Source: Octopus vulgaris
Taxonomy: Eukaryota
Assembly (NCBI GenBank): GCA_951406725.2
Contig: OX597815.1
Span: 103,664,001-103,728,000 of the forward strand
Length of the DNA: 64,000 bases
Direction: 5' to 3'
Part shown: positions 1,657 to 49,230 of the stretch, in pieces
Layout: every line of letters begins with the position of its first letter
Position numbering within the stretch: position 1 is the first letter of the stretch
Notes under the pieces: model-generated
Database searches by the model: none
Seen by the model: only the letters and a program-made list of their open reading frames with translations
What the model was told of the DNA's origin: nothing
Program-made: the position numbers and the translations under genes

Positions 1657-2425
1657 GCGGTGACTTTATTAAAGCCCACAAAACCTTTTTGGAGTAATGA
1701 CGGTGTGTGTTGTTCATGGTTAGAAGCCTGGCAGAGCCCACAACTCTCCCGAACAGAGAAAACAACAGACAAAAAGAGTGAGTAAAAGAGAAGAGTGGAC
1801 ATCACACATGACATCTACTCCTTGCATAGGGTTCGATAAAAGGAAAAGCAAATTGGACTTCACTGTTACTTGAACTCACAACAAAGAGAACATGAAGTTT
1901 GACCACAAAGCAATTTCTTCGGCTCTCGAAAGATTCTGCTAGTCGGCCTCATTTAGGTACACATGCATACATGTGGTTGTGAATGAATATATGTATGTGT
2001 ATATCTATGTATATATATGCTTATATGTATATACATATATCTATCTACATGAGTATGTGTGGTGGGGTGTCTGTGTGTGTGTAAGTATGCCAGTGTGTGT
2101 ACGTCAGTAAAAATAATACACATGCACATAATCTTTGTGGGAGAAATGCAGGAAGTTGTTTTTAAACCACAGAGAATTTCTATGTCCCGTAAGTCACTTT
2201 CTTGATTTAAAATTTGTATATATCTTCTTGTCTATGTGCATTAAAATTTTGTTTTGTTTCCTTCATCTCATGTTTTCTGCAGATTGTTCATTCATCACCG
2301 GAATGAACATCTATTCATTTTGGACTTCTATACACTAAATATAATATTCATTCTTTTATGTACATTTGTACATATTGATGTATGAAGTTTTAAACAGCCA
2401 GGTATTGTAATATTACAATTCCGAA

Positions 2426-2636
2426 AGGCGTAGAGCTGACAGAAATGTTAGCACGCCGGGCGAAACTCTTATCGGTATTTCGTCTGTCTTACGTTCTGAG
2501 TTCAAACTTCGCCGAGGTTGACTTTGTCTTTCATCTTTTCGGGGTCGATAAATTAAGCACCAATTTCGTACTGCGGTCGATTTAATCGACTGGCATTCTC
2601 CCTAAAAATCTCGGGCATTTTGTAGAAAAGAATATT
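2426..2636 (+). mobile_element. tRNA-derived SINE monomer (tail type A)
   Basis: Head ggcgtagagctgacagaaatgttagc with B-box-like gagttcaaac. Core shared with the copies at 4123-4522, 28237-28455 and 48307-48915. Ends agaaaagaatatt. Imperfect TSD aatattacaatt at 2409-2420 and 2631-2642. Confidence 0.9.
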
Positions 2637-2766
2637 ACAATTTTGATATGAGTTACGAATGGAAATATTTATTAGTAACGAGTAATGCATTTGTCGTAAG
2701 AGAAATTTCGAAGGAAATGTGGTAGTAATAATACAAATGAATTTTGAAAATTAAATTGTACGAGTA

Positions 2767-4045: not shown

Positions 4046-4122
4046 TAAAATTGCTGTTATGTACAAAAAAAATATCACTGCTTTAACGTTAGGCCTTTTA
4101 TCATGATGGAGAAAGAAAATCT

Positions 4123-4522
4123 TTTTTACTCTAGGAACAAGGCTCGAAATGTTTTTAGTAGAGAGGGGACAGGCGATTAGATCGACCCCTATACGCAACT
4201 CGTACTTAATTTATCGACCCCGAAATGATGAAAGGCAAAGTCGACCTCGGTGGAATTTGAACTCAGAACGTAAAGACAAACGAAATACCTATTTCTTTAC
4301 TACCCACAAGGGGCTAAACACAGAGGGGACAAACAAGAACAGACAAACGGATTAAATCGATTACATCGACCCCAGTGCGTAACTGGTACTTATTTAATCG
4401 ACCCCGAAAGAATGAAAGGCAAAGTCGACCTCGGCGGAATTTGAACTCAGAACGCAGCGGGGGACGAAATACCACAAAGCATTTCGCCCGGCGTGCTAAC
4501 CGTTCTGCCAGCTCGCCGGCTT
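4123..4522 (-). mobile_element. Dimeric tRNA-derived SINE (head+core+tail B, then core+tail A)
   Basis: Two copies of the core (..gaccccgaaa..atgaaaggcaaagtcgacctcgg..gaatttgaactcagaacg). A single TSD pair tggagaaaga(a/c)aatct at 4107-4122 and 4523-4538. Confidence 0.92.
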
Positions 4523-6733
4523 TGGAGAAAGACAATCTGTGGAAGTAACGTGTGCTGCTATACAGGAATCATTGTAGCAATTATTTCCGTTCTGTATTTA
4601 ACCAATATTTACTTTGTGCATTTTTGTATAATAATCTCACTAAGGCTGTTAATTGACCATAATTGTAGAATAAAAGAGAATATCTTCCTTTGATAGTTAT
4701 TGTTCCAGTGCTCTTCAAATTCTTTTGCTCTATTCTTTGGATGTATTTGTCGTGAGTTAGATTCCGCTTTCAGACATCATATGCAGGATACAATGGATAT
4801 GTTTATGATCAATGTCTACACCTGGCCAATATGTACAGAAATCTCTCAGAATGATTTAAGCATATTTCTATCTGTTAGGTGAAAGAAGATTAATTCCTAC
4901 CACTTTTTCTCCCTTCTTTTTTTTTTTTTTTCGTCCAAGTGACAAATAGTAACTTTTAACAGTGATACAATGTCACACATTTCACAACATTTGAAACGCT
5001 ACTTTCTTTTTTCAACCCCGTATAGTAAGTAGCAATGCGGAAGTCGGTGGAATATGAACTCAGAACTATAACGAATTACTGCACGGTATGTTTCGTGGCG
5101 CTAATGATCCTACAAATCTAATGCTTTTTAATCCCTAAATGTGTCCATTGAGGTTTCATAGATTTTTTTCCTGTAAGGGGATAAAGATGTCATGAAACGC
5201 ATTTCGATTGCTATCACTTGCAAAAGAAAATATTTCTTGGCTATATAGATTATTCCAATATCATGTATGAGTTCTATACATTTCTCATTAACGAATATCT
5301 TGCTGTTGCATTATCACACACATGAAGTATTTTATATCTTTTCATAATTTCATGACAGACCATGTTGCAGAAGGTCTGCTCCATCTACAGTGTTATGTAT
5401 TGTGCATTTTTAATGATAGTTCCACGTTTCTCACATATGGAAGAAAAATGCTATATGACTATTTGTTGGTTTCCTCTGGAGGAAAAAAATGTATCTATGA
5501 CTTTCACAGATCTTACGAGTACAGGGCGATTGATGCCATTAACATATCTTTTAAACTGCTGCTATAACTTAACAGAAAACACTTTCGTTATACATTCTTC
5601 ATCTTGTTTTCTATGAGATTTGTTTAAGGCAACTGTAAACATGAAGATAGACAGGTGTTCAGGCATGTTGAAGCATGTTTATGATATATTTACAGAAGGA
5701 TTACATTGCTTCAAATATTGTACACAATATGTTCAACAATATCGATGAATATAGAATATCTGAAGTTGACACCCCAGTAACATGTTTATGAACTCAAAAG
5801 CACAAGAAACATATCAATCTTCACTAAATTTTGCAGAAAATGGCATGCGGCGGTCTATTTCTATATTAAAATTCATCCATGTTCATCAAAGTTAAGATGG
5901 CCTATATTCGAAATAAGATTAAATGGATATGCCGTAAATGCCGCGAGACAGAACACAAATATATCAATTCCATACAATTCCGAAAAGCCCTGATTGATAT
6001 GTAGCTACACATACTCTTTCACTAAACGCCAGGACATCACGAAGCCACCAGACAATACGCACTCATAAGGAAGAAACAATTACTGTAATCTGCTATGCTA
6101 TTGGTAAGGAGGTAATGAATATACGATTAGCGAACTCCGGGCCTTCCTTGAGGAAGGCCAAGACAAACAACACCACATGTACATTATCCAGCTGATCGAT
6201 CAAAGATGAAAATGTACATCTGCTGATCCGCTTGGACCAGCAAAATTTTAATGAGTTCTAGACCGGAAGTACTATCAGGCAACTACACAAAATTGCTAAA
6301 GGACACCTCTATGCTAATGCTATGCTAATGATTCTTTTACGAAAACTATTTAATTTTTCATTGAGCCACAGAAAGAAAAATTGGAAAGATGAAGAGAAAA
6401 ATGCAGTTTAATTAACAAATACAACCCACGTGTTAATAACAGATCTGAACTGCTCACAGATTATTGGTTACTATAGCAATGCAAAACAATCATTGATACA
6501 TATACACTACGGAACAAAAGTGGCCGACTAAAAACATTATTTCTCCGAAAATTTCTGAAGTAGTAAAATCCGAAAATACTGAAATACGAGGTAAACGTAC
6601 AAACTATTGACCTGTAAAATTAACATTTCACAACTTGCATACTTTTGAATATTAAAATGTACTTACAAACATTTTTGTATATCAGACAATACTTCGTGAA
6701 AACTAAATAGCTAGCTAGATAAATTGATTGATG

Positions 6734-8135: not shown

Positions 8136-8334
8136 AAGCAGAATTTTTAGCACGCTGGATGAAATGCTTAACAACATTTCGCCCGACGCTGCAGTCTGAA
8201 TTCCGATTCTGCGGAGGTCAACTTTGCCTTTCTTCACTTCGGGATCGATAAATTAAGTACTAGTTGAACACTAGGGTCGATATAATCGACTCACCCCTCC
8301 CCCCAAATTGCTGGCCCTGTGGCTTTAAAACCAC

Positions 8335-17034: not shown

Positions 17035-17635
17035 CTATTTACCTATCTATCTATTTATATACACAGAGACACACATACATACACTGAGATACTGTAACAC
17101 GCACACATATACACACACATAGACACACACACAAAGAGAAATATCGTTTGCACTCTGTAAATTGGACCTATTAATACAAATATATATTTATATTTGAAAA
17201 TTCATCCTCTTAAAGTATCCACTTTTTACTTTCTCTCGTTTTGCATATATAACTATATACATATTTTGTATTTCATACCCAAACTGCTATATTTAATATA
17301 TACATTTAGCAGAAGCAACAGAGTGAGTCAAGGGTTGAGAGTTTCATGTGTTGACACATATCAAAATAAGTGGATCTCTTAGTTTTCTGTATATATATAT
17401 ATATGTATGTGTGTATGTGTGTGTGCGTATGTGTGTGCGCGTGTGTATGTGTGTGTGTGTGGTCTGCTTCTGTACTTGTCCCCCTCCACCGCTTGACAAC
17501 CGACGTTGGTGCGTTTACGTCCCAGTAACTTAGTGGTGCCAGGGTTAAAACTGTACTGGGAAGGGTTCATTCGGCTAAAATTCATCAGGCGCTGCTCCAC
17601 CTTAGTTGCGGTCTCATGGCTGAGGCAAGTACAAG

Positions 17636-17681
<46 letters not shown>

Positions 17682-17685
17682 AAGG

Positions 17686-17736
17686 AGCTTCTACAGGACT
17701 AGTACTGTTTCATTCAAGAGAAATCTTCAGGAAGCT
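17686..17736 (-). ncRNA. Hammerhead ribozyme motif (type I)
   Basis: Exact reverse complement of 21295-21345. Confidence 0.7.
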
Positions 17737-18197
17737 ATTTAACAAGAATAGTATTAGCATTTATACATTTAGGCAGGTTTAAAGGAGTGATGGTGGGGGA
17801 CTTTTTTGGGGGTAGGCATAGCGCAAAATATCATACTTGGGGGAGTGGTCAAGGAGTCAGTGGTAAGTTAGATGAAAGAATAGATAAATAAAAAAATAAA
17901 AAAATAATAAAATAAAAAAATAAAAAAATATAAAAAATATATAAAAAAATAAAATAAAAAAATAAAAAAATAAAAAAATAAAAAATATAAAAAAATAAAA
18001 AAATAAAAAAATAAAAAATAAAAAAAATAAAAAAAATAAAAAAAAAAAAAAATAAAAAAATAAAAAATATATATAAAAAATATATATATAAAAAATATAT
18101 ATATATATAAAAAAAGGGGGGATAGAGTTATAGGTAAATAAGGAGATTCTCACTTATACCTATACACATATGTATACGTATCTACACACACATATAT

Positions 18198-18248
<51 letters not shown>

Positions 18249-18544
18249 CACATATACATACATATCTACATACACACATACATACACCCGCCCACATATA
18301 CAAATTTATACACATGCACATGCATATACCTGTCTACACATACACACACGTATATATGCATACACTCACTCCCATGCATGCACGCATACACACATGTATA
18401 TATATACCCACGACCACACATACATATATACACAGAAAGATATATATTCATACGCACATACACTCATGCACACACAACACACCTAGTTCCCTATATACAC
18501 ATATTTACACCTATATATACATACACCCACATACACATATGTAC

Positions 18545-18575
<31 letters not shown>

Positions 18576-18674
18576 CACGCATACATATATATACATGTGT
18601 GCACATACATACATATACACATATACATACACATACACATACACATGTGTACCTATACATACCTACACATACAC

Positions 18675-18715
<41 letters not shown>

Positions 18716-19106
18716 CCAATACAGGCCCATTCCCTAATTTTAATTTTATTATCTTCATTTATTACTTTTGTTATCTTTGATCGCTAGAGCTAAGGATCCT
18801 GGCTATGGCAGCATGTCCATTTGTCTGTCTACTAGAAGGCAAGTACTCATTCCCGCACGCACACTCATTAGCACGTACATTCACCCATTCGTACACTCAT
18901 ACACATACACGTACGCACGCGTTATATTCATACATACAAACATCTACATACGTTCACGTATATACACATACGTACTCGTACCTACAGATTCGTGTCTACA
19001 CTTTAGGAGGCTAGTCTATACATATACACCAATAAATATACACATATATATATATATACACATATACATACACACACACACATATACTCCTACATACAGA
19101 TACATA

Positions 19107-19153
<47 letters not shown>

Positions 19154-19353
19154 CATACACATACACACATATATATACACACACATACATACACATATAT
19201 ATACATACACAAACATATATACACACATATATATATATATACACACATACACACACATACATACATATACACACAAACACATACATACGTATACATACAT
19301 ACATACATCCATACATCCATACTTACATGCATTTATACGCATACACACACCCA

Positions 19354-19390
<37 letters not shown>

Positions 19391-19885
19391 TCACACATAC
19401 ATATACAAATATACGCACACACATACATACATACACGTATACACATACACGCACATACACATATACACATATACATGCGTACCCATACACGTGCACACAC
19501 GCACGCGCATCCATATATATACACACACACACATATATACACGTGTGCAAGCATACATACATACTCATACACGCACACATACTTACATATACATATATGC
19601 ACACACTTACACGCATATATACATACACATATACATGCATACATACATATATGCATACATACACATACACGCACATACACATATACATGCGTACCCATAC
19701 ACGTGCACACACGCACGCGCATCCATATATATACACACACACACATATATACACGTGTGCAAGCATACATACATACTCATACACGCACACATACTTACAT
19801 ATACATATATGGACACACTTACACACATATATACATACACATATACATGCATACATACATATATGCATACATACACACACGCGCA

Positions 19886-19929
<44 letters not shown>

Positions 19930-20074
19930 TACACATACATATACATACACATACACATACATACATATATATACACATATATACACATATACACATACAT
20001 ATATACACATATACATACATATACATACACACACACATACATATATACATATACACTGATACTCATACCCATAC

Positions 20075-20105
<31 letters not shown>

Positions 20106-20188
20106 TATACACATGCATATACTTATATCTCTACATACTCACATATAAACATATATATATATACACACATATACATATACATGTACAT

Positions 20189-20221
<33 letters not shown>

Positions 20222-20223
20222 CC

Positions 20224-20255
<32 letters not shown>

Positions 20256-20892
20256 TACATATACACATATACATGTATACATACGCAATAATGATACACA
20301 TATATACACATACACACACACAGACAGATGCATATACATACATATATATATAAATTACATATCTATATAAATACATACATAATACACATATACACACACA
20401 TATATATACATGCATATACATATACAAATATACATACACATACGTACACACACACGCGCACACATACATATACACACACACATATACAAATACATACATA
20501 CACACATACACACACACACATATATACATACATGTACACATACACATATATATATATCAACAAGAGAGGGTAAAGTTAATTAGTTATTAATCAATTTCAC
20601 CAAATATTCAGTATGTAAAGGGACCATTATTATTTTGAGTAAACAATGTTAGGGGGAAAAAAATTCTCTAAGTAGTGGAAGAGGCTAAAAAAACTTTATT
20701 GGCTGCTATTTCTAGAAAGTTTAGTATGTGGCAAAGTAATTTATTTTATTTTACTAAGCCCTAATTATATAATATTTTATACATACATACACATACATAA
20801 ACACATACATTTACACATACATATGCATATACATATATACACATATACATACAAACACATATACATATATACACACACACACACATACAAGC

Positions 20893-20935
<43 letters not shown>

Positions 20936-21294
20936 AATATATATACATATATATATTTTTACATGCATACATACACACACACACACACATAATACATGCG
21001 TATATTCCTACTGTACCCATGCATTTCTATACATATATACATACATACGATACACACGTATTTTTTATATTTTTTTATTTTATTATTTTTTTATTTTATT
21101 ATTTTTTTATTTTTTTATTTTTTTATTTTTTTATTATTTTTATTTATCTATTCTTTCATCTAACTTACCACTGACTCCTTGACCACTCCCCCAAGTATGA
21201 TATTTTGCGCTATGCCTACCCCCAAAAAAGTCCCCCACCACCACTCCTTTAAACCTGCCTAAATGTATAAATGCTAATACAATTCTTGTTAAAT

Positions 21295-21345
21295 AGCTTC
21301 CTGAAGATTTCTCTTGAATGAAACAGTACTAGTCCTGTAGAAGCT
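21295..21345 (+). ncRNA. Hammerhead ribozyme motif (type I)
   Basis: agcttc-CTGAAGA-tttc tctt gaat-GAAA-cag tactagtc ctg-TA-gaagct. 6-bp stem I, canonical CUGANGA/GAAA core, GUA cleavage triplet, weak stem II. Confidence 0.7.
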
Positions 21346-21428
21346 CCTTCTATATAATAAATTAATTTTACTCTGCTATGTATTGAGTACCTTACTTACT
21401 GTGGTTAACCCCGAATCAACCCGGGACC

Positions 21429-21481
<53 letters not shown>

Positions 21482-28236: not shown

Positions 28237-28455
28237 AATATTCTTTTCTACTCTAGGCACAAGACCGGAAGTTTTGGGGGAGGGGGCCAGTCGATTAGAT
28301 CGACCTCAATACGCAACTAGTACTTAATTTGATGACCCCGAAAAGATGAAAGGCAAAGTCGACCTCGGCGGTTTTTGAACTCAGAACGTAAAGAAGGATG
28401 AAATGCAGCTAAGCATTCTGCCCGGTGTGATAACGTTTCTGCCAGTTCGCCACCT
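28237..28455 (-). mobile_element. tRNA-derived SINE monomer (tail type A)
   Basis: Full head-core-tail match to 2426-2636 and to the last unit of 48307-48915. Confidence 0.9.
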
Positions 28456-28980
28456 TTCGTTTATAGAGACCACCTTTGCGACAATCATGCGCACAAGCAT
28501 ACACGCACACACATATGTATAAATGTTTTTAGTATTATATCCATAATCAAAACATTCCGAGTTTTAAAAATAATACAGGTCGATTGTTTTACCTGGCATT
28601 TCAATATTTCGGGATTAGGAACACCTCTTCAAGAAATCATGTGTGTATGCATGTATGTACGTATATGTGCCTCTGTGCTCTTGGATGTGTGTGTGTTTGT
28701 ATGTACTTGTGTACAGATGGATACCATGTCTCTCGATTTAAATAATTTGAAATCAATTGTTTATTTTAAATACGAGGACTCTCCTTTGCTTTTTATCTGT
28801 GAGTTTAGGAAACCAATTTTACTTTTGTCATTCAGCATTTGGTAACACGATTTTCGAGTCCCGGAGTCGATATATGTCTTTATCTCATAATTTTGACTTC
28901 AGCTAGCTTATTCCCCATGGATTGTTGTTCCTTTTTATGGTTATGCATGGAAAGCTAACGCACACATATATCTATATCAA

Positions 28981-29109
<129 letters not shown>

Positions 29110-29201
29110 AGGAAAAATTTTTTTTTTTAAAAATGCAGAATGCTCAAATGAAAGAAAATTTTAATAAAATGAGAAAATGATAAAATATATAAATATATAT
29201 T

Positions 29202-29242
29202 TATTCAACCGGTTTTCGTCATTGTATGACTTGTCAAGAATA
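29202..29242 (-). ncRNA. Minimal hammerhead-like motif with U3-A8 core variant
   Basis: tattc-TTGACAA-gtca tacaa tgac-GAAA-accggtt-gaata. Stems I and II pair, stem III is palindromic, and there is one extra A relative to the usual spacing. Confidence 0.55.
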
Positions 29243-29874
29243 TTTATGTTTTAAGAAGTTTTTTTAAAAATTAGAAAGGGGAAAAAAAGAAAATTGCATT
29301 GTTTTTTGTAAAAGAATAATGATAAAAATGTACAAAAATTAAAAAATAAGTTCTCCGATACATTGTGAGTTCGTTGTGTATCTTGAGTTTTATGGTTGTT
29401 TACCAAAATATTACCTTGAGGTGTTAAGATCCAAAGGGATTAAGAGCATGTGATGTGTTGTGTTGTTAAATTCAGCATGTTGCAGGACAGGAAGTAGTAG
29501 TAATTGTGGTCCTGGTTCTTCAGTTCCTGTGTTGTGAGTAAGGGGAGACAACTCTTTTGAGTTCTTCAATAAAACCCAAATTATAAAACTATCATTTTAG
29601 CTTCATTTGCATTATCTTTTTTATATAATTGCTTGTTAACTTAACTTTCAGATTTTAACACTTTATTTATATTATTTTCTAATAATATAAAACTGCATAG
29701 ACAATTGCATTTCAAATTGTCATATCATTTATAATAAAAATGATAGTAATAACAACAATAGTGAAAATGATATTTAAAGAATATAAGTTTTAGCTTGAAG
29801 TGATGAATGCATGGTATCTTTATATATTTGTGTTAGTCCATCCATGAAGAGTGAGGTAGAGAAAGGAAGTTTGA

Positions 29875-31974
29875 TCAACGAGGAGTTTGCATATTAAGTT
29901 GTGTTTGGAATTTTTCAATAAAGAGATTCTCCTTGTTAATTCTCTCCTGTGTGGTGATCCCGTCTTTACATTGGTAGAAGGGGAATATATAGAATTTGGG
30001 GTTTAAGTCTTTAGCACATGAGTCTAAGTGGTCACTCAGTGGAATTTGTCGGTATTCCGGGAGATTTATTTGTTCTTTATGCACCGTTACTCGTTTACGT
30101 AACGGGAGACTCGTTTGTCCAACATAATTATGTTGGCAACCAGCGCATGTGAGAACGTAGATAAGGTTCTCGGAGGAACAGGAGAAGTTAGTCTTGATTT
30201 TAAACTTCGTACCTTGTTTGAAGGTAAATTCAGAGCCTTCAAGTAGAAAGGGGCAGGTACCACAGTTTGAGCGTGCACATTTTTTTACTGTTGGGGGTGG
30301 ATGTGGTGTGTGAAGTTTGGCATTTGTCAAGAGTTTTTTTAAAGATTTGTGTTGCCTTTTGCATTTGAGGATTTTGTGTGTATTTATAATGTTTTTCATT
30401 TTTGGGTCTGTTGACAGTAGACTGAGGTTTTGTATGATTGTGGTGTATGCTTCGATATTTTTGGGGTTGTGGGTGGAAATGTATGGAAGTATTTTGAGGT
30501 TGTGTGTGGTGTTAGGTTGGGTGGTTATCAGTGTAGTGTTGTCTAGTTCTTTGGCGCGTTTTATTCCATACTCTATAAGGGTGGAGGGATATTGACGTTG
30601 TAATAGTGTTTTTTTGAGGTCTTGAAGGCGTATTTCTCGTGTTTTTGGATCCGAGACAATGGTGCATACCCTTTTAGCTAAATTGAAAGGGATATTTGTC
30701 TTGGTGTGTTTTGGGTGGCATGAACTAAAGAGGAGGTATTGTTGTGAGTCTGTAGGTTTGTGGTAGATGTCTGTTATGATTTGGTTCTTAGGTGTTTTTA
30801 TAATTAGGAGATCAAGGAATGGGAGATGATGTTTGCTTAATTCCATAGTGAATTGGATGTTGGGATGTATGTTGTTTGGTATGGTTTTGAATTCCAGGAG
30901 TTTTTCATAAGGTTCTTTCCATATGATGAAACAATCATCTAAATACCTTTTCCAGTTTTCCATTAGGTAGGTGTGGAAAACATGTCCAAATTTCTGGCTT
31001 GATATTTCATAGAGTGACAGTTCGAAGTAACCCATTATGAGGTTCGCAAGGACTGGTGCAGCCTTGGTACCCATCGCAATGCCACATTTTTGACGGTAGT
31101 GTGTGTCGTCGAAGAGAAAAAAATTGTTTGTCAGAATGAACTTAAGAGATTCTGTAATAAAAGACTTGTTAATGCGGTCAGGGAATGTCTCTGGGTGTTT
31201 TTCTAGCCAGAAGTCAATTGCCTCTATACCATACTCATGTGGAATGTTGGTGTAGAGGTTGATGACATGAAAGGATACCAGGAGTGCCTCCTCGTTAACT
31301 GTTTTCGGGAGGTGTTTGAGCATGTCCAGATCATCCCTAATGAAACTTTTGATGTGGGTAAGGAAAGGTTTCAAAAGGATGTCTAGGAAGTTACTCAGGC
31401 GGTGTGTTTCACAGGAGGTACCAGCCACGATGGGCCTTAGTTTTAGGTCCTCCGGTGCTTTGATGTTGATGTGGATGTCAGTGGAGAGTTTGCAGGCTTC
31501 GGTGATGTATTTGTTTTTATGGATTTTAGGAAGGCCATAAAAAAGGATGGGCTTGCATTTGAAAATGGTGATATAATCCCTTTCTTTTTCTGTGAGTCCC
31601 TGACCGTGTTGGCGTATGAGTGTGGTGAGGTTTCTTATTGTTTTTTGCTGTTTGTAGTTGTTAATAACCTCATAGAAAATGTTATTGTTAAGCATGGAGA
31701 ACACTAGGTGTTTATAAAATTCCGTGTCCATAAGGACCACAGCACTCCCTTTGTCCGCTTCTTTGATGGTGAGGTTTTTATCCAGTTGTATGTCACGTAG
31801 GTTTTCCCATTCTTCCTTACTGAAATTGGATTTTACCTTGGTTTTGCTTGGGGTAAAGGGGAGACTCTGGATGTGTTTACAGAAAACGTCCAGTGTTTTA
31901 TTTCTCCCTTTTGGTGGTAGGAAGTTGCTTTTATTTCTGATCAATGAGTCGTCCCCATTGTTGATATCTGTCAA
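29875..31974 (-). CDS. Penelope-like reverse transcriptase + GIY-YIG endonuclease (699 aa open; true start further upstream)
   Basis: ADKGSAVV, FYGLPKIHK, LRPIVAG, LYTNIP, GIAMGT..APVLANL, RYLDD, LPFLD, YHKPT, SCHP. Cys linker CARSNCGTC (Neptune-type). NLIY..C..C..YVGQT endonuclease. The motif-A Asp reads His (SFHV, 31267-31269), so this copy is probably RT-dead. Confidence 0.95.
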   Translation of the reverse strand: MTDINNGDDSLIRNKSNFLPPKGRNKTLDVFCKHIQSLPFTPSKTKVKSNFSKEEWENLRDIQLDKNLTIKEADKGSAVVLMDTEFYKHLVFSMLNNNIFYEVINNYKQQKTIRNLTTLIRQHGQGLTEKERDYITIFKCKPILFYGLPKIHKNKYITEACKLSTDIHINIKAPEDLKLRPIVAGTSCETHRLSNFLDILLKPFLTHIKSFIRDDLDMLKHLPKTVNEEALLVSFHVINLYTNIPHEYGIEAIDFWLEKHPETFPDRINKSFITESLKFILTNNFFLFDDTHYRQKCGIAMGTKAAPVLANLIMGYFELSLYEISSQKFGHVFHTYLMENWKRYLDDCFIIWKEPYEKLLEFKTIPNNIHPNIQFTMELSKHHLPFLDLLIIKTPKNQIITDIYHKPTDSQQYLLFSSCHPKHTKTNIPFNLAKRVCTIVSDPKTREIRLQDLKKTLLQRQYPSTLIEYGIKRAKELDNTTLITTQPNTTHNLKILPYISTHNPKNIEAYTTIIQNLSLLSTDPKMKNIINTHKILKCKRQHKSLKKLLTNAKLHTPHPPPTVKKCARSNCGTCPFLLEGSEFTFKQGTKFKIKTNFSCSSENLIYVLTCAGCQHNYVGQTSLPLRKRVTVHKEQINLPEYRQIPLSDHLDSCAKDLNPKFYIFPFYQCKDGITTQERINKENLFIEKFQTQLNMQTPR

Positions 31975-32152
31975 AGCTTCTGTTAGGCGAAGTTTTCTGC
32001 AGAATTCAGAAACGTCATCCTTGACCTCCGGGGGTTGGGTGTTCTTGGGGTGGGTGTGAATTTCAAACCTCTTGCTAGGATGTTGATTTGGGTTGGTGTC
32101 AGTGTTTTGCTGGAGAGGTTTATAATTTTTGTTTTCTTATTTTGGGTCTGTG

Positions 32153-33088
32153 TTAGCGGTGGTGTTTGTATTTTTCCCCTCTGTCTAAAAAATGGTTGTT
32201 GAGGTAAGGGGTGTATTCTTTGTTAAAGTTCTGGTTGTATGTGTAGGAGTGTTTTTGGGTGGGGAGGTTGGAGGGGGGTAGGTAGTTGTCGTATTTGTGT
32301 TGGTATGGGATGCGATGGTGTAAGGATTTGTGAGAAATGCGATGGGTTTGTGGGTGTGTGTCTGGTAGATTGTATGGGGGGATGTAGGGGGGTATGTAGT
32401 TGTGGTGATTGGGTTCGTGTGGGATGTGAGGGTTTGGAGATCTGTAGGAGATGTGGTAGGAATGTGGTTGTTGGATGGGTGGACTATAGGGGGTTCGTTG
32501 GGTGGGTCTTATATGTATCGGTGTGGGTAGGATGCCTTGTTTGTTATTAGTGTGAGGGAGGGGAGCCTTGAGGGAGGGATAATTTCTAGTGTATGGGAGG
32601 TTCTTGAAGGTTCTAATCGGTGGGGAAGGGGTGTTAGAGTGATTGGAAAACCAGGTTTTGTGGTGGGTCTTGTTTGAGATGTTTCGGGGGGGAAAAGGTT
32701 TTTTATATGGTTGGGGGAGGTTGTGTGCTGTTAGGAGGGGGTTTGGAGAGTATGTGTATTTGAGGTGCGGTTTGGAATGGTGTTTATGGGGTACAGTGGA
32801 AGTCTGTGTTGTGGGTACTTTTATGAATGGGTTTTTGGATTTATGGTTTAATATGAATTGTGTTTCATAGTTGAGGAAGAAATCTTTGTTGTTTTCCCAG
32901 CGTTTGAGGGAGGTTCGTTCTTCCTTTTCACATTCATCTTTCCATAGTTTAATAACAAGTTCGAGGGGCTGTTCGTTGGTGTGTGAGGTTAGTTCTAGAA
33001 GTATCTCATCGTCTATTTTTGTGTATTTTTGTTCGTGGTTTTGTGCTCTGAGTTTTAGAAGTTCTACTTCGGTTTTCATTTTTTCCAA
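32153..33088 (-). CDS. Penelope-like element upstream ORF (charged helical segment + P/H/Y/N-rich low-complexity region), N-terminally truncated
   Basis: 311-aa open frame directly upstream of the RT on the same strand. Ends HFLDRGEKYKHHR* just after a T TTT TTA heptamer. Confidence 0.75.
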   Translation of the reverse strand: MEKMKTEVELLKLRAQNHEQKYTKIDDEILLELTSHTNEQPLELVIKLWKDECEKEERTSLKRWENNKDFFLNYETQFILNHKSKNPFIKVPTTQTSTVPHKHHSKPHLKYTYSPNPLLTAHNLPQPYKKPFPPRNISNKTHHKTWFSNHSNTPSPPIRTFKNLPYTRNYPSLKAPLPHTNNKQGILPTPIHIRPTQRTPYSPPIQQPHSYHISYRSPNPHIPHEPNHHNYIPPYIPPYNLPDTHPQTHRISHKSLHHRIPYQHKYDNYLPPSNLPTQKHSYTYNQNFNKEYTPYLNNHFLDRGEKYKHHR

Positions 33089-33171
33089 TGTTAGTTTTTC
33101 TCTAAGAGAAAAAATTTTTCCTTACTTATCATTTCTCCACGTGCGGTCAACACAACCCCACCATTTATTGA

Positions 33172-33234
<63 letters not shown>

Positions 33235-34063: not shown

Positions 34064-34982
34064 GTATTTGTATATGTATCTATATGTGAACGTTAACGAT
34101 TAGGTAAATAAATGTCTTATTCTATACTTTTCTTTGCATATCTCAAATGGTTTCATGATCTTATATTATTTTCTTTGTATGTGCTTTTACTTTTTCCATG
34201 TACATATTAGCTTGAACTAACAATTTCACCGTATAATCACTGGGTGATACATGCAAGAATTACTAGTACATAACTTTTGTCAAAATATATGACACAAGAA
34301 TCACATTATGCTGTGTCTGGTGTTTATTTCGTTGATTTCCTAACCCTTCATAGCTGACTTCACCTATTAAATCATATCCATGGTATTGATAATAGATAAA
34401 TGTAGACTAGAAATGAGACGCACTAGTGAACGTGGAATTCTTGGCACTAAACGTCTTGCTAGCTTTAAAATTGGACAGCGAGTTTGAATATTTTATCACT
34501 ATTATAAGATAATGTAAACATAAGTGATAAAGAAAACCGTTCTTTCTTTTAATGCATACTATTTGACAGGTTGCAAGAAACTTTTAAATATCATCAATGT
34601 TTACTAGATAATGCCGAAAAGAATCTTCAGTATCGAATCACGAATCACGAATCACGATGTCGTATGTAACTTTTCACTTCTCATATTCCGGTTTATTAAT
34701 GCTTCAGGCGAGTGCCATAATTTGACATAAGATGTTGAAATTGAATTATCAAGGAAAAAAAAATCAACTATCACTTTGAAAATGCTCCCATATATTTTCT
34801 TGTCAGGAAATTATAAGAATGGTGTATGTTTTCTTAATTATTATCTCACTACACATGTTGCCAATTTTATTTCTTATTTACATACCTAACTACCTACCTA
34901 CCTACCTATTACATACATACATACATAAATACATACATACATACATAAATACATACATACATATTTACATACATATACATAT

Positions 34983-35139
34983 GTCTTTATTGCCCACAAG
35001 GAGCTAAAGATGGAGATGCCAAACAAGGATAGACAAAGGGATTACGTCGATCACATCGGCCCCAGTGCGTACCTGATACTTATTTAATTGACCCCGAAAG
35101 GAAGAATGACAAAGGCGACCTCGGCGGAATTTGAACTCA
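34983..35139 (-). mobile_element. 5'-truncated SINE with tail type B (Tx1-like tail), between (TACA)n and (TA)n
   Basis: Reverse complement gagttcaaattccgccgaggtcg..core..ccttgtgggcaataaagac matches the tail-B units at ~4290-4460 and 48350-48717. Confidence 0.85.
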
Positions 35140-36263: not shown

Positions 36264-38177
36264 GTTTCTTTATTAGCCACACAGGGCTGCACACAGATAG
36301 AACAAATTACAAGGTAGAGCTTTTCTTTTGAAGGTTTAAGAAAAAAAAAAAAAAAAAAAAAAAGGAAGGGGGAGTTTCGATCAAAAGGGATCGTAAAAGG
36401 AGAGAAAGAGGACAAAAAAAGGGGGTTTAAAAAAAAGGGGGGAGGAAAAAAAATTGATCAATAGGGATCGTTATCACAGAAATGTCAATATGAAGTGTAA
36501 AGGGGAGGACAGGTGAGGTTTACCCGTGCAAAGAAAAGCCTACGGAAAAGACCACGGTAACCTCGGTCAATGATGTCACATTTTATATTTCTTTTTTTTT
36601 TTTTTTTTTGCAAATAAGCAACTCTCTGTTTTCGATTTCTGGGTTCATAGGACTATGCTCAAGGTGGCTTCGTCATTCATACGTGCCATTCTTGCTACAT
36701 TCACCCATCTTTTTTAAAACATTCGCTAGACAAAACGTGCCTCTCTACTCTCACTTTCCTTTTCAAGTGGTACTTGAAGAAGTTGATGAGAGATTGACCA
36801 GAGAGGAAAGTGTTTGTCTCCAATCCTTTCAGACGCGTCCACCAGATACATTCCTTCGCCATAGCCACAAGGATGATGAAAATAGCTCTTCCTTCCCGTT
36901 TGAAGGAAGGAGGCGTGACAATATTGACGATAGACTCAGCTGATAAACCGACTCGTCCCACACGTGACAGCAGTTGTTCGACATAAGCCCACAGGTCGGA
37001 AATTGTTGGACACTGAACGAGTGCGTGCAGAACGGTTTCGTCGCTCTGACCGCATCTCGGGCAGGTCGGCCCCGTGTTTCTCGAGCCGTGTCTGTAGAGC
37101 TTATCCCGAACGGGTAGCGCTTCTCGGTAGCACTGCCAGGCCAGGGATCTCTGGAAGTTGTCCATGGGCCCTGGCCCGAAAGTCGTCCTGAACAGGCGGG
37201 TCAGGTACTCCTCGTCGACGTCCAGGTTCGCCCCGAGCTCGTCGTCGTACCTCCCCTCCACTAAACCCCTATAGAATGCTTTGGTTGTGTTGAAGTCACT
37301 TAAGGTCGACCCAGGACGGCAGAGTTGCTTGAGGGCAACGCGACACTCGCGGTGCCATTCGCCCTTCCTCGGCCTCTTTTTGATCCACGACTGCAGTTCG
37401 GTCATGGAGACGAGCTGCGGGAAAGCGTGCCTCACAAACGGCGACCACACCTGTTCACCGTCGTCTACATAGAGCCAGAGATGCCGCAGTCTCAGCGCGT
37501 GTCTGCGCATCATCAACCACGGCATGCCCAGCCCTCCTTTTAACGGGTGTTGACAGCAAATGGATCGCCTGACCATCGGGACGCATCCTTTCCACAAGAA
37601 GCGAAAGAGGATGCGTTGTAGTTTGGTGATGGTAGGGTCGGGACAAGGTACGACGGTCAGGCGGTAGTAGATGACGGACGCGATGTACGTGTTCGCCACC
37701 TCCGCTCGACCTTTTAGGGACAGTTTCCTCTCGGCCCATTGCCGGGCGAGAGTGACCACCCTACTCGTTATCTCGTTCCAGTTCTTCTCCACTTGGAGGT
37801 CCGGACCAAACCAGACCCCGAGCAACTCAACCGGGCCGTCGGTCCAGCGTCCCACGACGGAGGCGCTGGTGGACGGCATGGGCTTGCTTCTCCAGGTGCC
37901 TAGTCGCAAGCCCACTGACTTTTCCCGGTTGATTTTCGCTCCTGTCACCGCTTCGTAGTTTTTCAGTGTCTCGCCGACCAGTTCGATGTGCTCGTGGCTA
38001 GACACTATGACGGTGACGTCGTCCGCGTATGCAGACACGCTCGTCCCGCATCCCAATTCTCGCGGGATGCCCCTTAGAGTCGCCAAATTCCGCAGTAGTG
38101 GCTCAAGAGTCAATACGTATAGAAGCGCCGAGAGGGGGCATCCCTGACGGACCGAACGTGCAATGTTGAAAGGTCTC
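36264..38177 (-). mobile_element. Tx1-clade (L1 group) LINE, 5'-truncated, young, in a (GATA)n array
   Basis: GC-rich coding stretch plus 3' UTR ending AATAAAGAAAC. Pure (GATA)n on both sides (36187-36263 and 38178-38304). Confidence 0.9.
36645..38177 (-). pseudogene. Tx1-like ORF2 C-terminal half (RT motifs B/C to CCHC zinc knuckle)
   Basis: SVRQGCPLSALLY, AYADDVT, KINREKS, LLGVWF, LSLKGRA, FLWKG, GGLG, CPRCG..ETVLHAL..CP. Open for ~490 codons, with one frameshift in an A-run near 36710 before the probable true stop at 36645. Confidence 0.92.
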
Positions 38178-38305
<128 letters not shown>

Positions 38306-38316
38306 TCTGTATGTGC

Positions 38317-38360
<44 letters not shown>

Positions 38361-38362
38361 GT

Positions 38363-38398
<36 letters not shown>

Positions 38399-38739
38399 AT
38401 GCGTCCGCGAGAGAGTATATATGTATTTGTGTTCTGTGAAGTCTTTTCTATTGCTTTCCTGCATTGGCTTATGTGTTTTCAATCTAATGAGACTGTTAAA
38501 GAAACAGCATTTGGTAAATATGTGCATATATTAAACATTGTGTGATTTCAGCACAAGGTCACGCATTAGGGAACGTCATGCATTTTTAAGCGGGAAGATA
38601 ATGATATTCGGAACAGGAGTACTTGAATTGTAATAAGCCAACTTGATGTTTTAATGTTTTGTTCAACTCAGAACTTTAACTGTTTCGGTACCACCAGCAA
38701 CAACAACATTTATGATGATTAAAATAGTTTATAATTTGG

Positions 38740-42715: not shown

Positions 42716-44200
42716 CTAGACTAGACTAGCGAAGACCCGTTGGGTCACCAATAGTTCAAGATACCCGAAAAACCCTCTTATCTCGAGAATCCGTGGTCCG
42801 ATTTACGCGAAACTTCTGTTATTCCATGTGTATTCACATTTCCACGTTACCTTAATTTCAAAGTATTTTCCCCATTATACGCCGGTTTTTTCATTTATTA
42901 AGGTACCCGAAAAAACTGCGTATCTCAGTAACCTGCGGTCCGATTTACACAAAAGTTGTTTTATTTGTATTCACATGACCATCCGATTCCTGACGACTCC
43001 TGTTTTTGCCTCTTTCCCCTCATTTTTGCCAGACGCCCGTCCTTCCGAGTGTCCGATTCCTGATCTCTCCTGCTTCTGTATCTTTCCCTCTGTTCCACCA
43101 GACGCTCAGCCCTTGCTTTATCAGTCTCATCGATCCTTCCTCTCGCATGCATATCCCGATCTTGGGTAAAAATTTCGTAAAGGACCCGTTCGTATTTCGG
43201 TGTGAAATAAATTTTTCCACATGTGCTTTTCGAGTGCATTGAACGTATCTCACCTTCAAACCCACCGCAAGCCACTTTCTTCCGGAAAAGAAATGGAGGA
43301 AGTGTTGTGGGGAACTCGGAGATTCCAGGGAATTTCTGAGTTTCCCACCAACGGTGTTTTATTTTATTTTCCAGGTTGTTTCGCATCCTTTGAACGAATA
43401 TAACATCGAAATCACGCGTAAATGTTTCCTTTCCCCAGAAAGGAAATATTTGGTTGTTATTTCTTGCCCTGCTACTACGTAATAGCTATTTCGGGTCCCT
43501 TATCGCAAATAGCTGTTACGTGGTAGCAGAACGTGCTAGAAATAACAGCTAAATCTTTTGAGGTGAGATATGTTGAACGCACTCGAAAAAATCTTATGGA
43601 AAAATATTATTTCAAACTGAGATTACGACCGGGTCTTTTATTAAATATTTACGATATTTTTAAGGTGATTTTCACTTTAAGATATTTTTTAGACGTGCCA
43701 AAAATTTTTGTAAAGGTATTCTCTTGAAATTAATTTTTAAAAACATCAAAATATTGTCTGCTGAAAGAAAGCTAAAATAGAAATACTTATTGTACAAACA
43801 ACTTATATTTTTTAAATCATATTCACTTAAAATATTTCTGAATGACTAAAATGTAGTGTTTAACAAAAGCGAAAATAGAAACATTTACTGTGAAAAACAA
43901 CTCGTATTTTTTCTTTGGCAAGTTAGTCACTAATATGTTTAATCGAAAGGTTAGAGTTTCTTCACTTACATGGATTAGTTATTTTTCTGAGTACTTTCAC
44001 ATTTTGTGTATTTATACCTCACCAAAACCCCTAATGTCTCAAGAACTAATTGTCCGTTTTACGCGAAACTTGTGTTATTCCGTTTGTATTCACATTTCAG
44101 GAGATACTTAATTCATATTATTTTCCCATAATGCGCCAGTTTGGCTGTGTAACATTCCAAGCAAGCAAGCCGAAGTTCATTTTTAATGTAATGTATATAT
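42716..44200 (-). mobile_element. Probable non-autonomous Helitron with internal direct and inverted repeats
   Basis: Minus-strand 3' end: hairpin gaccc-aac-gggtc followed by (CTAGT)x3. A ~75-bp module repeats at ~42765, ~42906 and ~44020. Inverted pair at ~43200-43260 and ~43556-43617. The 5' end is poorly defined. Confidence 0.55.
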
Positions 44201-46919: not shown

Positions 46920-46965
<46 letters not shown>

Positions 46966-46969
<4 letters not shown>

Positions 46970-47187
46970 TTTCAATACAACCCTCTGGTTTCTATCTTTA
47001 AAACAAACTGATTTAAATTATTCGTTATAGCTCAACGTCCTTGTTACTTAGCCCCGTAATATTGGTATATATATATGTATATATATACCAATATTACGGG
47101 GCTAAGTAACAAGGACGTTGAGCTATAACGAATAATTTAAATCAGTTTGTTTTAAAGATAGAAATCAGAGGGTTGTATTGAAAGTAT
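46966..47187. repeat. Near-perfect long palindrome (100-bp arms) centred on (TA)n
   Basis: 46966-47065 is the reverse complement of 47088-47187 with one mismatch seen. The centre is tatatatatatgtatatatata. Confidence 0.97.
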
Positions 47188-48306: not shown

Positions 48307-48915
48307 AAGGCGGCGAGCTTGGCCGAAACGGTAGTGCGCCGCGCAAAATGCTTAGAGGTATTTCGTCTGCCGCTACGTTCTGAGTTCAAATACCGCCGAG
48401 GTCAACTTTACCTTTCATCCTTTCGGGGTCGATTAAATAAGTACCAGTTACGCACTGGGGTCGATATAATCGACTTAATCCGTTTCCGTTTATCTGTCCT
48501 TGTTTGTCCTCTCTGTGTTTAGCCCCTTGTGCGTATTAAAGAAATAGGTATTTCGTCTGCCGTTACGTTCTCAGTTCAAAAGATTTTGCCTTTCATCCTT
48601 TCGGGGTCAATAAATTCAGTATCAATTACGCACTGGGGTCGATGTAATCGACCTAATCCCTTTGTCTGTCCTTGTTTGTCCCCTTTATGTTAAGCCCCTT
48701 GTGGGCAATAAAGAAATAAGAAATGTTAGCCGGCCGGTAGAAATGCTCAGCGGTGTTTTGTCTGTCTTTACGTTCTGAGTTCAAATTCCGCCGAGGTCGA
48801 CTTTGCCTTTCATCCTTTCGGGATCGATAAATTAAGTACCATTTGCGTACTGGTGTTGATCTTATCGACCGGCCCCCTCCCCCTAAATTTCAGGCCTTGT
48901 GCCTAGGGTAGAAAA
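48307..48915 (+). mobile_element. Trimeric tRNA-derived SINE (tail B, tail B, tail A)
   Basis: Three core copies with junctions at ~48546 and ~48718. A single TSD pair gaatattaatgca(g/t)tatat at 48288-48306 and 48916-48934 interrupts the mariner ORF. Confidence 0.93.
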
Positions 48916-49230
48916 GAATATTAATGCATTATATGAGAATCGGACAATAACCGTAAGCCAGTATCAACGGGGATTCCAGAACCGGAAACTACAACCCAGA
49001 AGACGAGCCTCGTTCTGGAAGATCTGTAGAGCTCGACAAAGACGTCCTGTAAACCCTGCTTGAACAAAATCACATCGGAACTGTTGAACTAGCAGAGGAG
49101 CTTAGATTTGGTCATTCAACCAGTCGTTCGAGTCAGTGCTAGAAAAAAATGAACCATCTTTGGTTTCAACATGAAAGGTGTTCTTCCATCTGGATAACTC
49201 TCGCCCACGCACTGTGAGGAAGACATTCGT

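What the first reader, a model, noticed from the sequence alone, without database searches (positions are those of the whole stretch)
17681..21350. Candidate microsatellite-carrying, hammerhead-capped non-autonomous Penelope-like retroelement
Seen: a 3.7-kb ORF-less unit with ~210-bp inverted arms (two mismatches seen, so recent). Each arm ends 5 nt after a hammerhead motif that points outward. The body is almost entirely degenerate CA/TA microsatellite with a strongly G-poor plus strand, the same skew as the sense strand of the Neptune ORF. The left arm joins the body through a short fold-back hairpin (tataggtaaataaggaga-t-tctcacttatacctata, 18129-18164), and the left flank is (TA)n. The autonomous PLE at 29107-33172 has the same layout: 3' hammerhead, inverted copy of its 3' end at the 5' side, hairpin junction, (TA)n flank. 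Inference: what looks like simple repeat is the cargo of a ribozyme-processed RNA copied by PLE reverse transcriptase, i.e. a mobile vehicle that spreads kilobases of microsatellite. I cannot tell from the sequence whether this has been described.
Basis: partly seen in the sequence, partly recalled or inferred. Interest (0 to 1): 0.8.

Follow-up and report, generated by a model that had tools for sequence, protein, structure and literature searches.

The report
Penelope ends framing microsatellite DNA
Two head-to-head end pieces of a very abundant, likely Penelope-type jumping gene frame 2.9 kb of simple-repeat DNA that was probably copied in with them in one insertion, a habit already described for these elements, and nothing here shows that the repeat-filled unit is itself a spreading family.

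Summary
The anatomy is real, but the unit is longer than reported (17681-21431). The inverted arms (2 substitutions in 198 nt) each carry a type I hammerhead motif. They belong to a very high-copy family: 12,424 contigs of one run lay on 285 nt. The family has two 3' ends, tailed and tail-less, both followed by (TA)n. Head-to-head ends, a one-sided tail, a fold-back junction and a (TA)n target are the published signature of Penelope-like elements (PLEs). The interior is about 80% CA/TA repeat of one polarity. Its ends coincide with the arms, and neither inner junction keeps a (TA)n run, which favours a single insertion. A shared, multi-copy interior was not shown: no genome was held, and the read tool skipped that part. 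The two arms have different upstream sequence. The 'ribozyme-processed RNA' model fails, because both arms keep sequence 3' of the cut site and no second hammerhead lies on the same strand. The nearby Neptune copy is a different family. Most likely this is a one-off or low-copy capture of host microsatellite DNA (0.45); two independent insertions remain possible (0.30).

The parts
17638..17676 (.). Left (TA)n tract, inferred target site
   Evidence: Sequence; run table
17681..18147 (-). Left arm: inverted, tail-less 3' end of the high-copy family. Unique part 17681-17878, T-rich repeat to about 18112, then about 35 pyrimidine-rich nt that have no match upstream of the right arm
   Evidence: other copies end in (TA)n at the equivalent place (loose ends behind 21362-21366)
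17686..17736 (-). Type I hammerhead motif of the left arm; predicted cut between 17692 and 17691
   Evidence: Descriptor scans; cleavage not tested
18129..18164 (.). Imperfect fold-back hairpin at the junction of the inverted arm and the body
   Evidence: 7 of 49,582 centres score as high; z -1.29
18165..21058 (+). Body, 2894 nt: about 80% degenerate CA/TA microsatellite of one polarity (tracts 18165-18711, 19017-20556, 20776-21000), no ORF
   Evidence: 11 of 12 inner (TA)n runs are CA-rich on both sides, against 3 of 54 same-polarity runs outside
18712..18850 (.). Non-repetitive island 1 (degenerate CA-like sequence follows to about 19016); copy number untested
   Evidence: no match among 80 PLE loci better than E 0.035
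19371..19886 (+). 212-nt tandem duplication (2.4 copies) inside the body
   Evidence: the two copies are nearly identical
20557..20775 (.). Non-repetitive island 2; copy number unresolved, weak hint of low copy
   Evidence: Word shares
21059..21350 (+). Right arm: T-rich repeat (21059-21152) plus unique 3' end of the high-copy family
   Evidence: 12,424, 44, 247 and 2,144 contigs laid in 4 of 4 runs
21295..21345 (+). Type I hammerhead motif: 6-bp helix I, intact core, 3-bp helix II on a U-U base, helix III region self-complementary at 14 of 16 nt (predicted to work as a dimer); predicted cut after 21339
   Evidence: the one listed variant inside the core is at the free position 7 (21305, about 18% of depth)
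21351..21431 (+). 81-nt tail, present on this side only; ends in a small predicted stem-loop with an AC-rich loop
   Evidence: Covered in 4 of 4 runs, with a (TA) loose end behind 21435 in one contig; fold not significant, z -0.63
21432..21465 (.). Right (TA)n tract followed by (TG)n, inferred target site
29107..33172 (-). Comparator, not part of the unit: Neptune-type PLE (RT, Cys-rich linker, C-terminal GIY-YIG) with the same head-to-head, one-sided-tail, (TA)n-flanked layout; a different family

Best explanation
Both arms are 3' ends of one very abundant hammerhead-bearing repeat family, likely of Penelope type, and they probably arrived in a single insertion into a (TA)n tract that carried 2.9 kb of microsatellite-rich host DNA between them. 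Inferred steps follow. A PLE protein acting in trans cuts the (TA)n tract and primes reverse transcription from both DNA ends. The right end copies an uncleaved RNA from the tail start, through the arm and on into non-element sequence. That sequence is most simply the upstream flank of a source copy, read through in the transcript; such flanks are microsatellite-rich because the family targets (TA)n. The left end copies a family RNA from the tail-less start. The two products are joined at the fold-back hairpin. The cargo would then be one-off or low-copy (source plus this copy), not the body of a family. The hammerhead is a conserved part of the terminal repeat; it did not define the copied RNA's 3' end.
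For: Shown: the family is very high-copy in 4 of 4 runs laid, and runs under four organism labels hold part of the stretch. It has two 3' ends, both into (TA)n. 19 contigs of run X1 show an inverted copy joined at a 4-nt palindrome at 21295, so fold-back junctions are a family habit. The arms share four alleles that are the minority by depth (family majority 57-72% in X1, 64-86% in X3). Both outer ends abut (TA)n, while the inner junctions have TA runs of only 4 and 5 nt. The one-polarity CA domain starts and ends at the arms and is the only one of its size in 64 kb; the next tract is about 0.5 kb. The nearest flanking CA/TG tracts on both sides are TG-rich. Literature: inverted 5'-truncated copies, a one-sided tail and (TA)n bias (PMC8557442, passages); host DNA and non-coding sequence captured between pLTRs in trans, and palindromes at inverted junctions (PMC3846280); tail between two RT start sites, and no need for hammerhead cleavage in vitro (PMC11167929).
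Against: No source locus, empty site or target-site duplication was seen: no genome is held, and duplications cannot be read in (TA)n. The interior part of the laid stretch (20975-21152) was skipped as repeat. The arms differ at 2 sites, at 21355 where the left arm matches a family variant, and in their whole upstream sequence, so two templates are needed. With 5,000-50,000 copies in an assumed 2.8-Gb genome, 8-750 chance head-to-head pairs within 3.4 kb are expected genome-wide. The tail is 81 nt, against the 30-40 nt usually described. No autonomous partner was found, so PLE mobilisation rests on structure alone.
Confidence: 0.45

Rival explanations
1. Two separate 5'-truncated copies of one young subfamily inserted head-to-head at the two edges of a pre-existing CA/TA domain. 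Later recombination between them may have inverted the interior and made the arms more alike. The body never moved.
For: The family is abundant enough to give 8-750 such pairs by chance, more if TA-rich regions are hot spots. The arms have different upstream sequence. Other copies join CA/TA repeat directly at varied 5' truncation points (loose ends before 21203 in 4 contigs of X8 and before 21293 in 2 of X3). Flipping the body would give one polarity with the TG-rich flanks. A one-sided tail is weak evidence, since both end types are common.
Against: The chance for a given copy is only 0.3-3%, lower again for the shared four-allele haplotype. Neither inner junction keeps target (TA)n. The domain edges coincide with both arm ends, and the hairpin sits at one of them.
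Confidence: 0.3
2. One reading: a multi-copy non-autonomous PLE subfamily whose RNA is microsatellite body plus arm plus tail, spreading kilobases of CA/TA repeat as a unit.
For: All the single-insertion evidence applies. Depth does not fall across 21167-21358 in X3, so most copies reach at least the T-rich part. A run of only 43 million letters holds 0.51 of the words of 20555-21432, while arm plus tail make up 0.31 and with the T-rich part 0.43, sd about 0.05. This leaves room for some interior words being common.
Against: The left arm, the other family copy at hand, has no body upstream. Word share rises from 0.45-0.51 in the six shallowest holders to 0.62-0.76 in the six deepest, as expected if part of the interior is low-copy; how the words are sampled is unknown. 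No look-alike of island 2 or of the arm in the scan's notes, though that index holds no window of this genome.
Confidence: 0.18
3. Assembly artefact: a mis-join between two family copies in microsatellite-rich DNA.
For: The family has thousands of similar copies, and such inverted structures are known to trouble assemblies (PMC8557442). No laid contig spans an arm-body junction.
Against: The arms differ in sequence, T-rich length and tail, and the window has no N.
Confidence: 0.04
4. A DNA transposon with terminal inverted repeats (MITE-like), or a retrozyme monomer bounded by ribozymes.
For: Long inverted ends beside TA; intact hammerhead cores.
Against: The ends are asymmetric: the 81-nt tail is family sequence on one side only, and family copies break off at varied 5' points. 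The two hammerheads lie on opposite strands, whereas retrozymes are direct tandem repeats (PMC7229834).
Confidence: 0.03

Closest known systems
Host DNA captured between Penelope pLTRs in Adineta vaga (pLTR-NRPS insertion; non-coding sequence between solo pLTRs; Pen1 spacers of 0.9-1.5 kb), PMC3846280
   Same: No element ORF; kilobases of unrelated DNA framed by pLTRs, one of them inverted; palindrome at the inverted junction; optional tail; mobilisation in trans inferred.
   Different: Here there is no direct 5' pLTR, the cargo is microsatellite rather than a gene, no target duplication or empty allele is shown, and the family has thousands of copies.
Inverted 5'-truncated insertions of Neptune, Naiad and Penelope/Poseidon PLEs in (TA)n, PMC8557442
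   Same: Inverted repeats flank the unit, a tail on one end, (TA)n target.
   Different: The interior is not PLE coding sequence; the tail is 81 nt rather than 30-40; the autonomous partner is unknown.
Hammerheads of metazoan PLE pLTRs (PMC4209133) and axolotl HHR_Amex2 (PMC7229834)
   Same: Type I topology and palindromic helix III suited to dimers. Motif pairs on opposite strands are described (100-700 bp apart). A U-U base to helix II occurs in HHR_Amex2 and in locus L007.
   Different: Longer helix III region (14 of 16 nt self-complementary); no G10.1-C11.1 pair; activity untested.
Non-LTR retrozymes of animals (PMC7229834; bioRxiv 10.64898/2026.07.22.740005)
   Same: Non-coding, type I hammerhead, PLE-related, high copy.
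   Different: Retrozymes are direct tandem repeats of 150-450 bp that give circles; this unit has two opposite-strand motifs 3.6 kb apart.
SSR-carrying Penelope and other transposons of penaeid shrimp, PMC7878876
   Same: Microsatellites reported to move along with recently transposed Penelope copies.
   Different: Those copies encode RT and hold SSRs inside the element; here the SSR domain replaces the coding body.

Membership tests
Penelope-like element (terminal repeat or derivative) | Type I hammerhead motif in the terminal repeat, sense strand, near the 3' end | tested here: met
   the only core variant listed is at the free position 7
Penelope-like element (terminal repeat or derivative) | Optional 3' tail, i.e. 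two alternative 3' ends | tested here: met
   Loose (TA)n ends behind 21362-21366 in 4 of 4 runs and cover through 21436; 81 nt rather than 30-40
Penelope-like element (terminal repeat or derivative) | Head-to-head inverted copy with a palindrome or hairpin at the junction | tested here: met
   family fold-backs at 21295 in 19 contigs of X1
Penelope-like element (terminal repeat or derivative) | Insertion into (TA)n or other AT-rich simple repeat | tested here: met
   Both outer flanks; loose ends of other copies
Penelope-like element (terminal repeat or derivative) | Sequence link to an RT plus GIY-YIG element (autonomous partner) | tested here: inconclusive
   No match to the window's Neptune copy or to 80 PLE loci (best E 0.93); the genome could not be searched
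Autonomous PLE | ORF with RT and GIY-YIG domains | tested here: not met
Non-autonomous PLE family with a microsatellite body | Interior shared, collinear, at several unrelated loci | tested here: inconclusive
   Interior skipped by the read tool; word shares ambiguous; the left arm lacks the body
Non-autonomous PLE family with a microsatellite body | Empty allele or target-site duplication for the whole unit | not testable with these tools
   No genome or long reads; (TA)n hides duplications
Non-LTR retrozyme | Direct tandem repeats of 150-450 bp, each with a same-strand hammerhead | tested here: not met
   Two motifs only, on opposite strands; no such tandem array
Non-LTR retrozyme | Self-cleaved linear and circular RNAs | not testable with these tools
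   Only contigs were offered; the one run on record as RNA holds 0.04 of the words
TIR DNA transposon or MITE | Symmetric terminal inverted repeats define both ends | tested here: not met
   Family tail on one side only; 5' truncation

The most novel reading that the evidence does not exclude
A hammerhead-bearing Penelope-type family with roughly ten thousand copies or more routinely exports kilobases of one-polarity CA/TA repeat to new (TA)n sites. It would do so either as a dedicated ORF-less subfamily or by repeated capture of its own microsatellite flanks. Each event would create new targets for the family, a feedback loop that could be a main source of the long compound microsatellites in this cephalopod-like genome.
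Probability: 0.2. Interest if true: 0.65.

Novelty: new member of a known kind. Interest (0 to 1): 0.36.

Why it matters
As it stands this is a clear example of a known process: Penelope-type ends framing non-element DNA. The very abundant hammerhead-bearing family itself did not turn up in my ten paper searches, but repeat libraries could not be checked. If genome data showed the interior at several loci, or many arm pairs framing different microsatellite domains, it would give a direct, testable route by which microsatellite-rich animal genomes gain long compound repeats. It would also test the two-ended priming model for inverted PLE insertions.

Tried and rejected
No whole genome was held, so the genome-wide co-occurrence test could not be run. 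The Rfam scan was swamped by microsatellite matches to miRNA models; no hammerhead among the 150 of 285 shown. A plain hammerhead pattern was no better than chance (16 overlapping matches, 17 of 100 shuffles as high); only the paired descriptor was specific. Folding z-scores for the hammerhead, hairpin, tail and arm were not significant. A 22-nt arm pattern found 0 matches in metagenome, prokaryotic-genome and viral contigs. The Neptune protein found no relative in genome or viral contigs. Among 80 metagenome PLE loci, 22 had a hammerhead hit (one doubtful), none matched the arm, and the 6 with microsatellite runs had only short ones. Reads laid on 20975-21436 gave no cover for 20975-21152 because the tool skipped it as repeat; this is no evidence of absence. 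Expression: the run on record as RNA and four RNA-guess runs hold 0.00-0.04 of the words; other RNA-guess holders may be DNA; no conclusion. Scan notes: nothing by sequence, by place or by most word sets. A hammerhead-like string on the minus strand of island 2, seen by eye, was rejected: the core is broken and the scans do not report it. The shared G-poor skew with the Neptune sense strand is real but weak evidence, since any one-way CA tract is G-poor. PMC12602865 and PMC3124438 held nothing that bears on the structure.

Full report
OBSERVATION. Self-comparison of the window gives one long inverted pair here, 17669-17972 against 21059-21362, 95.8% over 306 nt. The unique 198 nt differ at two sites. 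A paired-stem descriptor finds a perfect-core type I hammerhead in each arm and nowhere else in 64 kb, and none in 10 of 10 Markov-resampled windows. Helix I has 6 bp. Helix II has 3 bp on a U-U base. The helix III region is self-complementary at 14 of 16 nt, and two copies co-fold at -30.4 kcal/mol against -9.0 for one, as expected of a ribozyme that works as a dimer. The monomer fold is not more stable than shuffles, Rfam listed no hammerhead among 150 of 285 matches, and cleavage was not tested. The junction hairpin at 18129-18164 is matched by 7 of 49,582 non-simple centres, itself included. The body (18165-21058) is about 80% CA/TA repeat with 5.9% G. It has three islands and a 212-nt tandem duplication. 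Its long open frames are repeat read-through.

THE ARMS ARE ENDS OF A VERY ABUNDANT FAMILY. No genome was held, so I used public runs. Of 24 runs listed for 20555-21432, 20 hold part of it, from 10 studies; 19 of these hold 0.45 or more and carry four organism labels. I laid 4 of them on 20975-21436 at 82% likeness. In all, 12,424, 44, 247 and 2,144 contigs fit, with cover only on 21151-21436, and summed depth was around a million in the two deep runs. The tool warns that this is no copy number. My rough reading is 5,000-55,000 copies, and thousands at least. Three results matter. Copies end either near 21350-21356 or at about 21431, and in both cases run into (TA)n. So the left arm is a tail-less end, the right arm a tailed end, and the unit is 17681-21431 with (TA)n on both sides. 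Second, 19 contigs of X1 carry an inverted copy joined at a 4-nt palindrome at 21295, so fold-back 5' junctions are normal for this family. Third, both arms carry the minority allele at four sites (21245, 21275, 21293, 21328), so they come from one subfamily. The one listed variant inside the catalytic core is at the free position 7.

COMPARISON WITH THE NEPTUNE COPY. The element at 29107-33172 has an RT match (Pfam E 4.3e-5, below the curated cut-off), 521 homologues at E <= 1e-30, many annotated GIY-YIG, and an invariant Cys-rich linker in a 23-sequence alignment. It has (TA)n at both ends, a 24-nt inverted 3' end with a 46-nt tail, and a hairpin junction. Its hammerhead has a U3-A8 core, a variant described in PMC4209133; a 40%-identical relative, L007, has the usual core with the same helix III. 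So the layout claim holds. But it shares no specific sequence with the arms and its coding region lies in two frames, so it is not shown to be the partner.

WHAT THE BODY IS. For a single insertion: both outer ends abut (TA)n, while the inner junctions have TA runs of 4 and 5 nt. Of 12 inner (TA)n runs, 11 are CA-rich on both sides, against 3 of 54 same-polarity runs outside (the runs are not independent). The domain is several times longer than any other tract and stops at the arms. Against a family body: the left arm runs 467 nt, and its upstream part does not match what precedes the right arm. Word shares are 0.45-0.51 in the six holders of 43-187 million letters and 0.62-0.76 in the six of 2.2-3.8 billion; the seven runs in between hold 0.46-0.57. 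Arm, tail and T-rich part make 0.43 of the distinct words, sd 0.05. This hints at a low-copy interior but does not settle it. The direct test failed because the tool skipped 20975-21152. For independent insertions: chance head-to-head pairs should number 8-750 genome-wide, assuming 2.8 Gb and 5,000-50,000 copies, and other copies join CA/TA repeat at their truncated 5' ends.

MECHANISM. Shown: the layout, the family, the two 3' ends, and that both arms keep sequence 3' of the predicted cut. Inferred: cutting of (TA)n by a PLE endonuclease in trans; priming from both DNA ends; copying of an uncleaved read-through RNA on the right and of a family RNA on the left; joining at the hairpin. The retained downstream sequence and the lack of a second same-strand hammerhead exclude a monomer bounded by ribozyme cuts. 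This agrees with the Anolis Poseidon work, where the tail lies between two internal RT start sites and ribozyme mutants inserted normally in vitro (PMC11167929).

WHAT IS KNOWN, AND WHAT I READ. PMC3846280 (parts 1-4 of 5) reports a 4-kb gene and non-coding sequences captured between pLTRs, and palindromic inverted junctions. PMC8557442 (passages) describes inverted flanking copies, one-sided tails and (TA)n bias. PMC11167929 (parts 1-2 of 4). PMC4209133 (parts 1-2 of 4). PMC7229834 (passages and one section). bioRxiv 10.64898/2026.07.22.740005 (part 1 of 5). PMC7878876 (passages) reports SSRs moving with Penelope copies in shrimp. PMC6431247 and PMC9977147 (passages). PMC13282606 (parts 1-2 of 3) counts 31 recently active Penelope-like families in Octopus vulgaris; its supplement was listed but not read and its consensus library is outside these tools, so the arm family may already be catalogued there or in Repbase. 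That the window is octopus-like is my inference from recalled repeats and the microsatellite content, not a tool result. Ten searches found no description of an ORF-less PLE unit with a kilobase microsatellite body; the library lacks most subscription journals.

VERDICT. The feature is real and PLE-type, and its architecture is known. The exciting claim, a family that spreads kilobases of microsatellite, is open but unsupported. One-off or low-copy capture 0.45, independent insertions 0.30, shared-body family 0.18, artefact 0.04, other 0.03. Interest 0.36.

Noticed in passing
window 46966-47187: Near-perfect fold-back (222 nt, 98%) with a TA-rich centre, abutting (TA)n 46924-46968 on its left only; possibly another inverted, truncated insertion of an unknown family.
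   Followed up: partly
window 29205-29245 (minus strand): The Neptune copy's hammerhead has the compensatory U3-A8 core rather than C3-G8, so it may be a functional variant rather than a decayed motif.
   Followed up: partly
window 2422-2637, 4120-4523, 8138-8324, 28237-28459, 34975-35139, 48307-48923: Many 70-85% identical copies of a 150-220-nt interspersed repeat, some in tandem; a more diverged-looking piece precedes the left (TA)n flank (about 17460-17637, judged by eye).
   Followed up: no
window 36701-38530 (minus strand): Fragment of a non-LTR reverse transcriptase ORF of L1/Tx1 appearance (label recalled), open for several hundred codons.
   Followed up: no
window 42758-44142: Diverged direct and inverted repeats (42768-42888 with 44024-44142; 43166-43260 with 43557-43652) around a non-microsatellite stretch; possibly a DNA transposon remnant.
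   Followed up: no
L044 2036-2289: Head-to-head pair of near-identical hammerheads about 180 nt apart in a metagenome PLE locus, the usual short form of the layout seen in the window.
   Followed up: no
window 21412-21427 and 33141-33161: The tails of the arm family and of the Neptune copy both end in a small predicted stem-loop with an AC-rich loop, recalling the RT start site of the Anolis element; the folds are not statistically significant.
   Followed up: partly
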